Shown in pieces: positions 12,888 through 31,533 of a stretch of 64,000 nucleotides of DNA (within the stretch, counting starts at the first letter, position 1; the number at the start of each line of letters is the position of its first letter). This DNA is from a virus: IMG/VR virus record IMGVR_UViG_3300027861_000010. One strand, given 5' to 3'. The position numbers and the translations under genes were made by a program. The notes below the pieces were generated by a model that worked only from the letters and a program-made list of their open reading frames with translations, did not search any database and had not been told where the DNA came from.

Positions 12888-13287
12888 CTACGAACGCGTC
12901 GTACCTCGCGATCTCTTCCGCGAGAGCTTGTTGTTGAAGTGTCTCGGCAGGCTTTGTTTGTTGATTCACGACGGGAAACTTCCTTGGTTGAAGTTCTACC
13001 ATAATTCTGAGTTCAACACTGAACTAGAATTCAAAGGCTTTGAAATCTCTTGTCGAGATTCAGATGGCGGACTGGAGTGTTGTACTGTCAAGTTCTATCC
13101 AGCAAACACACCAGAAGACTCCGAAATGTGGCAATACGAGCTGGATATCTATACCGGCTTGGCCCGTCAAGGCGATCACTGGCCTCTCCACTTCACTGAC
13201 GAAGGTGAAGAGATCGAGGTCTTCGACAACGAAGGCAATATCACGTCTGAATTTCAGGAGGCAGTCACATGCGAAAGTTCCAAGTGA
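12877..13287 (+). CDS. Hypothetical protein
   Basis: GGAG RBS; 136 aa. Confidence 0.65.
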   Translation: MSADYERVVPRDLFRESLLLKCLGRLCLLIHDGKLPWLKFYHNSEFNTELEFKGFEISCRDSDGGLECCTVKFYPANTPEDSEMWQYELDIYTGLARQGDHWPLHFTDEGEEIEVFDNEGNITSEFQEAVTCESSK

Positions 13288-13646
13288 CTCTGGCTGACAA
13301 CAACCCAGAGTTCAACACGAAGATTCCGATCGCCGTCTCGGTAGGTCAGAACTTCATTCAGTTCGAGGCCGAAGGCTTCAATGCCTGCGGTGCTGCGGAC
13401 GAGCAACCGATTGGTGACGGCAACCGATCAATTGTTGCGTTCGAGATCTGGGAAGGCCGACTGCGTTTGCTGGTCTGGGCTGACATCAACCAGGAAGATC
13501 CGACGCATACCATCGACCTCGAAGAGGCTCGAACTTCCAACCGCGATTGCTATTACTGTGGCGGTAACTGTCATCGAGACCCTGAACACGCTTGTGACGG
13601 GTACCTCGGTGACATCGACAATCTTTACAAAAAGGAAAAGAAATGA
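13269..13646 (+). CDS. Hypothetical protein with C-terminal Cys/His motif
   Basis: CYYCGGNCH...HAC; stop overlaps the RAMP gene start (ATGA). Confidence 0.65.
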   Translation: MRKFQVTLADNNPEFNTKIPIAVSVGQNFIQFEAEGFNACGAADEQPIGDGNRSIVAFEIWEGRLRLLVWADINQEDPTHTIDLEEARTSNRDCYYCGGNCHRDPEHACDGYLGDIDNLYKKEKK

Positions 13647-14296
13647 AAAACATCAAAATCCAAGTAACTGGACTGACTCCACTACTGATGAACGCCTTCA
13701 AAGGCGACGACAACAACGGATCATCCAAGTCCTCGGCTGCTAAGGATTATGGCACTCCGTTGCAGCAAGCACAGGAGAAGCTGTACATCGGAACGGATGG
13801 CGAAACGCTCGTTATCCCGCAACCGAACATCTTCAGTTGCATCATTGAAGGCGGCAAGTTCTTTAAGAACGGGAAGTCAAAGGTCACGACCATGAAGACC
13901 TCGCTGATTCCCTCGTGCGTTTTCTTCCACGACATCGAGTACCCGCTGGAGTACAACGGCGTAGTAGGGGTGTGGACGACGGCGTTACCGGATCCAAGCT
14001 GCTGGTCGGTTGATAGCAGGCCGATTCGCAACCCTTCAACAGGCGGTCGAATTATGCGTCACCGCCCGATCATTCACGATTGGCGATTCACGTTCGCCGT
14101 TACTCTCGATACCGATGAAATGGCGGTTAGTTTGTTCCGTGACATTGTTGACGCTGCGGGCAGTAAGATCGGACTCGGCGACTTCCGTCCTGGCTGCAAA
14201 GGCTCATTCGGTCGTTGGAAAGTCACCAGTTGGGTCGTTACTGATGAAGAAGAAGAACAAGAAGTAGACGAGGAGGAAGAACTCCTCGAAGTCTGA
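13643..14296 (+). CDS. Solo RAMP/Cas7-like RNA-binding protein (putative Vipr-like effector)
   Basis: N-terminal strand IQVTGLTPLLMN; YIGTDGETLVIPQPNI; RHRP..HDWRFTFAV; Gly-rich loop AGSKIGLGDFRPGCKGSFGRWKV typical of the RAMP/Cas7 group; directly followed by a repeat array. Confidence 0.75.
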   Translation: MKNIKIQVTGLTPLLMNAFKGDDNNGSSKSSAAKDYGTPLQQAQEKLYIGTDGETLVIPQPNIFSCIIEGGKFFKNGKSKVTTMKTSLIPSCVFFHDIEYPLEYNGVVGVWTTALPDPSCWSVDSRPIRNPSTGGRIMRHRPIIHDWRFTFAVTLDTDEMAVSLFRDIVDAAGSKIGLGDFRPGCKGSFGRWKVTSWVVTDEEEEQEVDEEEELLEV

Positions 14297-14312
14297 TTCC
14301 ATTTCATGGAGC

Positions 14313-14914
14313 GGCTGCGTGTCGCAAGGCTGTGCCAGCTTAGGTCGGGCTTGGCGGGGTCAGGCAGGGTGCGGCAAGGCAAGGTTCCCGTCGTCATCAG
14401 AAATGGTGGCGACGGGCTTCCCGTGGTGGGGCGAGCTTAGGTATGGCAATGCCAGGCAGGGCGGTGCAAGGTACGGCAAGGCAAGGTTCCCGTCGTCATC
14501 AGAAATGGTGGCGGTGGGCTTCTCACGGTCAGGCACTGCTAGGTCGGGCGGGGCGGGGCGTGGCACGTCCGGGTGTGGTTAGGCAAGGCAAGGTTCCCGT
14601 CGTCATCAGAAATGGTGGCGGCGGGCTTTTACGCGGCGAGGCGAGGCGTGGCCGGGCGAGGCATGGCCGGGAGCGGCAATGCAGGGTGCGGCAAGGCAAG
14701 GTTCCCGTCGTCATCAGAAATGGTGGCGGCGGGCTTCTCAGGGCGAGGCGGGGCGACGCTCGGCATGGCTATGCCTGGCCGTGCTCGGCGTGGCTAGGAG
14801 CGGCAAGGCAAGGTTCCCGTCGTCATCAGAAATGGTGGCGGCGGGCTTTTACGCGGCGAGGCGAGGCCATGCAAGGCAGGGCGATGCAAGGTACGGCATG
14901 GAGTGGCGAGGTTT
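14313..14914 (+). ncRNA. Array of six GGY-NN pentamer tracts separated by conserved hairpins (putative VIPR-like guide RNA array)
   Basis: 83 in-phase pentamers counted by hand, 65 starting GGC/GGT; tracts start at 14313, 14425, 14527, 14635, 14742, 14855; each of the first five ends GGCAA-GGCAA-GGTTC then the hairpin. Confidence 0.85.
14387..14845 (+). repeat. Five copies of 30-nt hairpin CCCGTCGTCATCA-GAAA-TGGTGGCG(A/G)(C/T)GGG
   Basis: Copies at 14387, 14489, 14596, 14704, 14816 (spacing 102, 107, 108, 112); 13-bp stem, GNRA loop; variants keep pairing via G-U. Confidence 0.95.
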
Positions 14915-14951
14915 TTATTTACACAGGAGAAAAAAGAATGGAGGAACAAAG

Positions 14952-15386
14952 ATGTCAACGTCAAGACACCTGATTGATGCGGCGGAGTTGTTTGTGTCGA
15001 TGCCGGTTACGGTGTTGGCTCAAGCCGTCGAAGCACTGGGGTACGAGAACCCGCAGTACGAGATGTCGCGTGTGCTTTCACTTCAGCAGGCACTGAAGCA
15101 GGACTTCGAGAGTCGGAACAACATGGCTCCCGACCTGGCCGAAGCCCTCTACAACCTGGCTGACGAAGCTTACGCCAACGAAGACGACATGCAGACGAAC
15201 GTCGATCCACTTGAGATGCCGTTCGACATGTCCGAAGCAGACGAAGGTACCTGGGCTCATGCGTGGGTTTGGGTGCCTAACGATGAACTCGAAAAGGAGG
15301 TCTGGCGGATTCAGGAGGAACGGCGACAACAGAAACTTCGAGAGAAGGAGAAACCTAGTGGCTATAGACTGGGACGACGAATTTGA
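14952..15386 (+). CDS. Hypothetical protein
   Basis: GGAGG RBS, ATG at 14952 (MSTSRHLIDAAELF); the longer upstream extension runs through the array and is not credible. Confidence 0.65.
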   Translation: MSTSRHLIDAAELFVSMPVTVLAQAVEALGYENPQYEMSRVLSLQQALKQDFESRNNMAPDLAEALYNLADEAYANEDDMQTNVDPLEMPFDMSEADEGTWAHAWVWVPNDELEKEVWRIQEERRQQKLREKEKPSGYRLGRRI

Positions 15387-31302: not shown

Positions 31303-31533
31303 GTGCGGTACTATATTTTAACGATAGGCGGCGTCTGGTTTTTGTTTTCACTCGTTTTCACTCGTTTTCACTCGTTTTCACTCGTTTTCACTCTCGCACT
31401 CTGTAAGGCAGCATCAGACGCGGACGACTGGAATGAGGAGATGTTTAGAAAATTAAAAGAAAAGGAGGAAGCTAGTGCTTTTAACGAGAAGTGGGATCTT
31501 GAAAGCGATTCAGGATGGCTACATCGGAATTGA
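31303..31533 (+). CDS. Small membrane protein carrying a 10-bp tandem repeat
   Basis: GGAGGT RBS and GTG; hydrophobic N-terminus then LALCKAASDADD. Confidence 0.6.
   Translation: MRYYILTIGGVWFLFSLVFTRFHSFSLVFTLALCKAASDADDWNEEMFRKLKEKEEASAFNEKWDLESDSGWLHRN
31344..31393 (+). repeat. 10-bp tandem repeat (CTCGTTTTCA) x4 plus partial flanks
   Basis: Perfect copies at 31351, 31361, 31371, 31381. Confidence 0.95.

What the first reader, a model, noticed from the sequence alone, without database searches (positions are those of the whole stretch)
13643..14914. Solo RAMP/Cas7-like gene plus GGY-NN pentamer/hairpin array: candidate RNA-guided system with a non-contiguous code (VIPR-like)
Seen: a 217-aa protein with RAMP hallmarks, followed 16 nt later by ~600 nt of non-coding DNA. 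This holds six tracts of 12-15 strictly phased pentamers whose first three bases are nearly constant (65 of 83 GGC/GGT; the rest mostly TGC, plus GGA, GCT, CGC, CGT, GTC) while the last two vary freely. Tracts are separated by a conserved 30-nt hairpin. No cas1/cas2/cas3/cas6 is present and there are no CRISPR-type unique spacers. Established: Cas7-group RAMPs polymerise along RNA with fixed periodicity. Inference: each subunit holds a GGY and displays the NN, so the dinucleotides jointly specify a gapped target. This matches my recollection of recently described phage VIPR systems (Vipr plus GGY/NN RNAs, proposed to act against competing phages), so it may be a new member rather than a new class; I cannot verify this here.
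Basis: partly seen in the sequence, partly recalled or inferred. Interest (0 to 1): 0.95.

Follow-up and report, generated by a model that had tools for sequence, protein, structure and literature searches.

The report
Marine jumbo-phage VIPR guide-RNA system
This is a real but not new kind of system: a marine phage carries a VIPR locus (a small Cas7-like protein plus six guide RNAs built from GGY-NN five-letter repeats), a class first described in 2026 preprints; what its guides target is still unknown.

The parts
13643..14296 (+). vipr gene: 217-aa Vipr protein (a minimal Cas7-like RAMP). Residues 1-199 form the conserved core. Residues 200-217 are an acidic C-terminal extension found only in the closest relatives.
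14308..14419 (+). vrRNA unit 1: tract 14308-14382 (15 pentamers, NN = GC TG GT AA TG CA TA CG TT GG CA AG GC AA AA) plus tail 14383-14419.
   Evidence: An orthologous guide in L081 shares 23 of 26 NN bases. RNA ends are not determined.
14420..14521 (+). vrRNA unit 2: tract 14425-14484 (12 pentamers) plus tail 14485-14521.
   Evidence: This is the guide with the single 20/20 candidate match, in L083 and L084.
14522..14628 (+). vrRNA unit 3: tract 14527-14591 (13 pentamers) plus tail 14592-14628.
14629..14736 (+). vrRNA unit 4: tract 14635-14699 (13 pentamers) plus tail 14700-14736.
14737..14848 (+). vrRNA unit 5: tract 14742-14811 (14 pentamers) plus tail 14812-14848.
14849..14920 (+). vrRNA unit 6, tail-less: tract 14855-14909 (11 pentamers) followed by GGTTTTTATTT. 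It may be a terminal or degenerate unit.
   Evidence: In the relative L082 the last unit is capped by a terminator hairpin instead of the tail. No terminator-like site was found here on the + strand.
14387..14416 (+). Tail hairpin, first of five copies (the others start at 14489, 14596, 14704 and 14816). It has a 12-13 bp stem with three G-U pairs and a GAAA-type loop. The copies vary only by G-U to Watson-Crick changes.
   Evidence: RNA folds give -21 to -27 kcal/mol, z -2.8 to -3.3, and the - strand folds more weakly. In the alignment with L081, L082 and L045, 128 of 128 cells pair and 2 pairs carry changes on both sides.

Best explanation
The locus is a VIPR (Viral Interference Programmable Repeat) system carried by an uncultured marine phage. 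The 217-aa protein is a Vipr, a minimal Cas7-like RAMP. The 600-nt array is most likely co-transcribed with vipr and yields five or six vrRNAs of roughly 100-110 nt. By homology with the SUSP1 system, one Vipr protomer binds each pentamer. Adjacent protomers flip out and hold the GGY bases and present the NN dinucleotides. The filament then pairs those NN with double-stranded DNA that reads NN-x-NN-x (the 1-nt skip rule) and blocks transcription of the target. The hairpin tail caps the 3' end of each vrRNA. Shown here: protein homology, the fold, conservation of the GGY-contact residues, the array anatomy, the conserved linkage of protein and array, and turnover of guides between close relatives. 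Inferred by homology only: transcription, processing, RNP assembly, the skip rule and DNA silencing in this system. Unknown: the targets. The likely role is to silence a competing mobile element, or a host function, during infection.
For: (1) The protein matches solved SUSP1 Vipr (PDB 36pp) at E 1.1e-5 alone and at E 3.3e-13 end-to-end with a 34-sequence profile. tblastn finds the phiSUSP1 vipr gene.
(3) The SUSP1 residues that hold GGY (R138, D177, W178, R179; preprint .720927) align to R141, D180, F181 and R182. All four are invariant in the 34-sequence family alignment.
(4) The array has 78 phased pentamers, information only at positions 1-3, tracts of 11-15 repeats each followed by an invariant tail, and sits only on the + strand. 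This fits the published definition.
(5) About 55 of 80 IMG/VR relatives (35-52% identity) have phased GGY tracts flanking the gene. There are more than 100 tract segments on the gene's strand and 4 on the other strand.
(6) L082 (87% identical protein) has an identical tail core but unrelated guides. L081 (86%) has an orthologous first guide in which 23 of 26 NN bases are kept while 10 of 45 scaffold bases drifted.
(7) The tail hairpin keeps pairing in 128 of 128 cells across four loci, with 2 compensatory pairs, and its G-U pairs fix the + strand as the RNA strand.
(8) The setting is a phage: terminase, DNA polymerase, helicases, SbcCD.
(9) No guide hits its own window, as the preprint reports for its systems.
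Against: There is no direct evidence of transcription or processing. No promoter-like or terminator-like site was found on the + strand. No convincing natural target was found for any of the six guides, so neither the skip rule nor the biological role is confirmed for this clade. No vap accessory gene is conserved next to the gene, although published loci typically have one. Identity to the experimentally studied Vipr is only about 25%. Residue H17 of SUSP1 is N17 here, and W178 is F181. About a quarter of the pentamers depart from GGY. The sixth unit lacks a tail.
Confidence: 0.9

Rival explanations
1. It is a VIPR-family system that works by a different rule or on a different substrate from SUSP1. 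For example, it could use another skip length, target RNA, or require the constant GGCAA GGCAA end as a fixed AA-x-AA motif in the target.
For: The protein is only about 25% identical to SUSP1 Vipr. The tail is a plain hairpin, not the SUSP1 pseudoknot. The last two pentamers are constant in every unit. No 1-nt-skip target was found. The preprint itself reports variant repeat consensuses among types.
Against: The GGY-contact residues are conserved. The pentamer period and GGY scaffold match the studied type. Skip rules of 0, 2 and 3 nt gave no better hits than 1 nt in the window or the loci. Failing to find targets in sampled databases is weak evidence.
Confidence: 0.07
2. The array is not a set of working guides. 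It could be a decoy or sponge, or a decaying remnant. For example, its vrRNAs might titrate a rival's Vipr, or the cassette might be a non-functional passenger.
For: No targets were found. Many pentamers are degenerate, especially in tract 1. The last unit has no tail. The third preprint shows that solo vrRNAs can act as redirecting decoys.
Against: The vipr gene is intact and nearly invariant across independent marine metagenomes, with 0-5 differences. The tails are perfectly conserved. The NN bases of guide 1 are conserved against L081 while scaffold bases drift. This locus carries its own Vipr, unlike the published decoy loci.
Confidence: 0.02
3. It is a degenerate or minimal CRISPR-Cas remnant: an orphan Cas7 with a mini-array of repeats and spacers.
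For: The protein has a Cas7 fold. The hairpin repeats are spaced 102-112 nt apart.
Against: The stretches between hairpins are not unique spacers but phased pentamers. No cas genes were found among the flanking ORFs. The protein is a sequence homologue of Vipr and matches no Cas7 Pfam or NCBIfam model.
Confidence: 0.005
4. The repeat region is something other than RNA genes: a Gly/Ala-rich coding repeat (ORFs 14443-14973 or 14319-14582) or DNA-level iterons.
For: Long ORFs are open through the array in several frames.
Against: A 5-nt period and unit lengths of 102, 107, 108 and 112 nt are incompatible with a reading frame. The pattern is strand-specific and the stem has G-U pairs. The array is linked to vipr in dozens of loci. 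ORFs read through such arrays cluster only as artefacts.
Confidence: 0.005

Closest known systems
Type II VIPR of Escherichia phage SUSP1 (Vipr + vap1 + vrRNAs; bioRxiv 10.64898/2026.04.26.720920, .720927 and 2026.10.15.759431; PDB 36pp)
   Same: The protein is homologous end to end (profile E 3e-13). It has the same minimal RAMP fold and conserved GGY-binding residues. Its vrRNAs are built from 11-15 GGY-NN pentamers followed by an invariant 3' tail and arranged as an array downstream of vipr. It is phage-encoded, has no cas genes, and does not target itself.
   Different: Only about 25% identical. No vap gene is conserved beside it. The tail is a 12-13 bp hairpin with no demonstrated pseudoknot. 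The last two pentamers are constant (GGCAA GGCAA). The protein has an acidic C-terminal extension. There is no upstream vrRNA. The host phage is an uncultured marine phage, said in other notes of this scan to be about 210 kb, not a Felix O1-like coliphage. Targets are unknown.
Other VIPR types I and III-VII of the same preprint (stand-alone vipr genes, staggered arrays, ribozyme-interspersed arrays)
   Same: The preprint describes stand-alone vipr genes and variable array architectures. The window's clade shows this variety: hairpin tails in L045, tightly packed arrays in L016 and L033, and 30-nt non-hairpin spacers in L044.
   Different: There is no hammerhead or any other Rfam family in the array. 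The formal type could not be assigned because the preprint's tables and tree are not held.
Class 1 CRISPR Cas7 backbone proteins (Csm3, type VII Cas7, Csf2, Cas7-11)
   Different: No sequence-level family match. No repeat-spacer array, no adaptation or effector genes. The guide information is non-contiguous.

Membership tests
VIPR system | The protein is a homologue of Vipr (the family seeded by X1U2U4 / SUSP1 Vipr) | tested here: met
   phmmer against PDB 36pp_D 'SUSP1 Vipr protein' gives E 1.1e-5. The profile gives E 3.3e-13 over the full length. tblastn finds phiSUSP1 and 124 other phage records.
VIPR system | Conservation of the residues that hold the GGY bases (SUSP1 H17, R138, D177, W178, R179) | tested here: met
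   They align to N17, R141, D180, F181 and R182. The last four are invariant in 34 homologues. Two substitutions are conservative: H to N and W to F.
VIPR system | vrRNA made of 9-16 tandem YNNGG / GGYNN repeats with conserved GGY and hypervariable NN | tested here: met
   Six tracts of 11-15 pentamers. Information is 1.0-1.7 bits at positions 1-3 and 0.13-0.19 bits at positions 4-5. The guides differ completely from those of L082, whose protein is 87% identical.
VIPR system | An invariant, structured 3' tail after the repeat tract | tested here: met
   Five identical 29-nt cores. The hairpin folds at z about -3. Pairing is kept in 128 of 128 cells with 2 compensatory pairs. A pseudoknot like that of SUSP1 was not supported. 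Unit 6 lacks the tail.
VIPR system | Non-CRISPR context: no CRISPR array or cas genes; usually viral | tested here: met
   The window is phage DNA. No CRISPR-type repeats. Ten flanking ORFs have no Cas family.
VIPR system | An adjacent vap accessory gene (typical but not universal; stand-alone vipr genes are described) | tested here: not met
   The flanking ORFs have no Pfam or PHROG function. The flanks differ among the window, L081 and L082. No neighbour family of 135 related loci is present in the window. By the preprint's own account this feature is not defining.
VIPR system | vrRNAs are expressed as RNAs of about 100 nt and co-purify with Vipr | not testable with these tools
   This needs small-RNA sequencing and a Vipr pull-down, neither of which is available here. 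Only DNA contigs could be laid on the locus.
VIPR system | Guides recognise dsDNA by the 1-nt skip rule, with natural targets at 80% or more NN match | tested here: inconclusive
   No hit of 80% or more in the window, in 136 related loci, or in 301 Planctomycetota genomes. Five exact viral scans were empty. One guide gave a 20/20 hit of doubtful significance.
VIPR type II (SUSP1 / P. fulva clade) | Placement in the type II clade of the Vipr tree, a vap1 partner and a pseudoknot tail | tested here: inconclusive
   About 25% identity to SUSP1 Vipr. No vap1-like neighbour and no supported pseudoknot. The preprint's tree and tables are not held, so no type is assigned.

The most novel reading that the evidence does not exclude
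This vap-less VIPR cassette is a weapon of a marine jumbo phage against unrelated co-infecting phages. Guide W2 would truly target the conserved TWG[IV]NEAKWKY patch of the head-closure (gp4-like) gene of T4-like marine myoviruses. That would extend VIPR from conflicts with satellites and prophages to silencing of a lytic rival's structural gene, and it would use a register in which the skipped base is codon position 1 rather than the wobble.
Probability: 0.1. Interest if true: 0.55.

Novelty: new member of a known kind. Interest (0 to 1): 0.3.

Why it matters
It confirms that a reader without tools can recognise a VIPR locus from raw sequence. It also adds a well-delimited natural example from an uncultured marine phage. 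The conserved unit is only vipr plus a hairpin-tailed array, found in three different genomic contexts, with guides that turn over between relatives that are 87% identical. Such minimal, vap-less cassettes are useful comparison points for asking what a VIPR system strictly needs, and for finding compact programmable DNA binders. It does not open a new question, because the class, its code and its structures are already in preprints and this scan has seen many examples.

Tried and rejected
- Whole genome: none is held for this window.
As a result the 78-86% identical relatives P0004, P0006 and P0007 could not be fetched that way. L081 and L082 came from the metagenome scan instead.
- The tail core as an exact DNA pattern in viral contigs gave 0 hits.
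- Rfam: no family in the array above threshold and no hammerhead.
- The promoter/terminator scan found nothing on the + strand.
- RNA evidence: no RNA holder is listed among the sequencing runs. Only DNA contigs were laid, and they break at the repeats.
- Target hunt:
  - Self-search of the window under skip rules 0-3 gave background only.
  - All guides against 82 and then 136 related loci gave scores equal to the shuffled-guide null.
  - Guides of L081 and L082 against the window gave null-level scores.
  - Exact gapped patterns for W1, W3, W4, W5 and W6 in viral contigs gave 0 hits.
  - W1 with up to 3 mismatches in 3 plus 301 Planctomycetota genomes gave 0 hits.
- The W2 hit in L083 and L084 was examined and is not accepted as a target. 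The two sites are one independent event. The skipped base falls on codon position 1. GC is 35% against 52% for the window. No second guide converges on those contigs or on Melnitz or P-TIM40. The constant AA-x-AA extension matches only 2 of 4 bases.
- A pseudoknot between the hairpin loop (AGAA) and the downstream YUUCU was considered. It was dropped because the L045 tails offer no equivalent pairing.
- The W1/L081 contrast (10 of 45 scaffold differences vs 3 of 30 NN differences) is suggestive but not significant (Fisher p 0.22).
- The formal VIPR type was not assigned because no supplementary tables are held.
- No complex-prediction job was sent.

Full report
**What is there**

The + strand carries an ORF at 13643-14296 (217 aa, P0001). 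Eleven bases after its stop codon a non-coding stretch begins that runs to about 14920. The next gene starts at 14952, behind a GGAGG site.

The stretch contains five exact copies of a 29-nt core, GGTTCCCGTCGTCATCAGAAATGGTGGCG. They lie at 14383, 14485, 14592, 14700 and 14812, and occur nowhere else in the window. None appeared in 100 shuffles.

Between and around these cores lie six tracts of 11-15 pentamers in strict 5-nt phase. Of 78 pentamers, 59 begin with GGC or GGT and 9 with TGC. Information is 1.26, 1.73 and 1.02 bits at positions 1-3, and 0.13 and 0.19 bits at positions 4-5.

Phased GGY windows occur only here, only on the + strand, and never in shuffles. The last two pentamers before each tail are always GGCAA GGCAA. 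The sixth tract has no tail and ends in GGTTTTTATTT.

**The protein**

Pfam and NCBIfam give nothing. PHROGs gives an unnamed family, phrog_4652, at E 6e-19.

A search of PDB sequences finds exactly one relative: chain 36pp_D, 'SUSP1 Vipr protein', at E 1.1e-5 over the G-loop region. A profile built from 34 of the 756 or more homologue clusters raises this to E 3.3e-13 and extends it end to end (1-186 against 1-189 of 202). tblastn finds the vipr gene of Escherichia phage phiSUSP1 and 124 other cultured phages, all below 30% identity.

According to the cryo-EM preprint, SUSP1 residues R138, D177, W178 and R179 hold the two guanines and the pyrimidine. They align with R141, D180, F181 and R182, which are invariant across the family alignment. 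H17 is N17 here.

**The published class**

Three 2026 preprints describe VIPR systems: 10.64898/2026.04.26.720920, 10.64898/2026.04.26.720927 and 10.64898/2026.10.15.759431. Their main points are:
- Vipr is a minimal RAMP, and vrRNAs consist of 9-16 GGY/NN repeats followed by an invariant 3' tail.
- One protomer binds each repeat.
- dsDNA is recognised with one skipped base per repeat (NN-x).
- The outcome is transcriptional silencing without a PAM.
- Targets lie in satellites, prophages and rival phages.
- There are seven types with variable arrays and vap genes, including stand-alone vipr genes.

The window's locus meets every sequence-level criterion.

**Is the protein-array link conserved?**

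Eighty IMG/VR contigs encode relatives at 35-52% identity. About 55 of them have phased GGY tracts directly up- or downstream of the gene. There are more than 100 tract segments on the gene's strand and four on the other strand.

A further 56 loci lie in MAGs of many phyla. The closest, at about 52%, are Planctomycetota.

Two close relatives came from marine metagenomes.
- L082 has a protein 87% identical and four vrRNA units. Three have the same tail. The fourth ends in a terminator hairpin directly after GGCAAGGCAAGG. Its vipr gene follows a terminator and an AT-rich spacer. None of its guides resembles any of the window's.
- L081 (86% identical) has an orthologue of guide 1. In it, 23 of 26 NN bases are identical while 10 of 45 scaffold bases differ, mostly Y to Y or degenerate first bases. 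This fits NN carrying the information, but it is not significant on its own (p 0.22).

The genes flanking the cassette differ in the window, L081 and L082. None of the neighbour families recurrent in distant relatives occurs in the window; these include a PD-(D/E)XK-like exonuclease, a RusA-like protein and a protein of about 550 aa. So the conserved unit is vipr plus the array, and I found no vap gene.

**The tail**

Each tail folds as a 12-13 bp hairpin with three G-U pairs and a GAAA-type loop, at -21 to -27 kcal/mol and z about -3. The complementary strand folds less well. Copies differ only by G-U to Watson-Crick changes.

L045 (Vipr 44% identical) has tails of the same geometry with a partly different stem. 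I aligned 16 tails from four loci and counted 8 core pairs. All 128 cells pair, two pairs change on both sides, and three change on one side. The stem has a 3-nt periodicity, so the control with pairs slid by 3 also pairs well, and I treat this as moderate support.

A pseudoknot like that of SUSP1 is not supported. Other relatives have tightly packed arrays or non-hairpin spacers. No Rfam family, and no hammerhead in particular, is present.

**Setting**

The window is phage DNA: terminase large subunit, DNA polymerase, DnaB-like and other helicases, SbcCD and a GP88-family protein. Unchecked notes of this scan call the genome an uncultured marine jumbo phage of about 210 kb, with hints of a Planctomycetota host.

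The locus is held by about 20 seawater or marine metagenome runs from 19 studies. Contigs from four of these runs cover vipr with 0-5 differences and break at the array repeats.

One contig joins 14535 to 14854 with a single shared base and keeps the pentamer phase. This is a likely natural variant in which three units were lost by in-phase recombination, creating a chimeric guide.

**Targets**

I applied the published rule (NN joined by one wildcard, both strands). The results were:
- The guides do not hit their own window. The best scores are 63-73% and are no better than under other skip rules.
- They do not exceed a shuffled-guide null on 136 related loci.
- The relatives' guides do not hit this window.
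- Exact gapped patterns for W1, W3, W4, W5 and W6 found nothing in the viral collection.
- W1 with up to 3 mismatches found nothing in 304 Planctomycetota genomes.

W2 matched all 20 informative bases in two homologous IMG/VR contigs. The site lies in the head-closure (gp4-like) gene of T4-like marine myoviruses (phrog_218), in the conserved patch TWG[IV]NEAKWKY. The OM43 phage Melnitz keeps 16 of 20 bases and cyanophage P-TIM40 keeps 12 of 20.

Several points argue against W2 being a real target:
- It is one independent event among six guides.
- The skipped base is codon position 1, not the wobble position that the preprints find typical.
- The contigs have 35% GC against 52% for the window.
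- No second guide converges on these phages.
- The constant AA-x-AA end matches only 2 of 4 bases.

I keep W2 as an unconfirmed lead, with about 0.1 probability of being real.

**How it most likely works**

Shown here:
- a Vipr homologue with the GGY-binding residues;
- an adjacent same-strand array that fits the vrRNA definition;
- conserved linkage of protein and array;
- conserved tails with fast-changing guides.

Inferred from the SUSP1 work:
- The array is transcribed with vipr. There is no terminator between them, and in L082 a terminator closes the unit.
- It is cut or trimmed into units of about 100-110 nt by an unknown route. The preprints do not specify processing for this array type.
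- Vipr protomers polymerise along each tract, sequester GGY and present NN.
- The filament binds dsDNA reading NN-x-NN-x and blocks transcription.

What the system silences is unknown. A competing mobile element in the same host is the default expectation from the literature.

**Comparison and novelty**

This is a member of the VIPR family. It is distant from the studied type II (about 25% identity). Its local features are:
- no vap gene;
- a plain hairpin tail;
- two constant terminal pentamers;
- a tail-less last unit;
- an acidic C-terminal extension shared only with its closest relatives.

The preprint already allows for stand-alone vipr genes and varied arrays. The family has NR members that its PSI-BLAST survey probably captured. 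This scan has noted VIPR-type loci in at least 225 other genomes. I therefore rate it a new member of a known kind, interest about 0.3.

Noticed in passing
window 14535-14854: A contig from run X5 (1105 nt, depth about 5) joins 14535 to 14854 and skips 318 nt (three tails and most of tracts 3-5). Only 1 base is shared at the joint and the pentamer phase is kept. This is a likely natural array variant with a chimeric guide made by in-phase recombination.
   Followed up: partly
window 14240-14293 (Vipr residues 200-217): The Vipr protein ends in an acidic extension, TDEEEEQEVDEEEELLEV, predicted to be helical. It is present in the closest relatives (215-217 aa) but absent from most of the family (about 197 aa). 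Its function is unknown; a nucleic-acid mimic or autoinhibitory tail is conceivable. The GAA-rich DNA there attracts unrelated contigs when reads are laid.
   Followed up: no
window 31344-31393: A perfect tandem repeat of a 10-mer, GTTTTCACTC x5 (TRF score 100), lies in an otherwise gene-dense phage region. It is unexplained.
   Followed up: no
L082 3877-3956 and 4051-4100: In the relative with an 87%-identical Vipr, one tract contains a 1-nt phase slip (TGCAA-A-GGCTA). The last vrRNA is followed by a canonical terminator hairpin instead of the usual tail.
   Followed up: partly
L045 4600-6430; L016, L023, L033; L044: Within one Vipr sequence family the array architecture varies widely. L045 has hairpin tails over at least 13 tracts. 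L016, L023 and L033 have tracts packed 7-9 nt apart. L044 has 30-nt non-hairpin spacers (TTTCGAGGGG...). Several loci have tracts on both sides of vipr.
   Followed up: partly
L104 and L116 (one Victivallales contig, about 26 kb apart); L057 and L060 (one IMG/VR contig): Some genomes or contigs carry two vipr paralogues, each with its own tracts.
   Followed up: no
window 14425-14484 vs 14855-14909; 14629-14652 vs 14849-14872: Guides share blocks in whole-pentamer steps. W2 and W6 share GGCAG GGCG(G/A) TGCAA GGTAC GGCA(A/T). W4 and W6 share their first 20 or so bases together with the preceding tail. This suggests unit duplication and block shuffling.
   Followed up: partly
window 13269-13646: The upstream 125-aa ORF overlaps the vipr start by 4 nt (ATGA) and ends in a Cys/His-rich motif (CYYCGGNCHRDPEHACDGY). 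It has no Pfam or PHROG match and no homologue beside vipr in 135 related loci, so it is probably not a vap gene. It was not examined further.
   Followed up: partly
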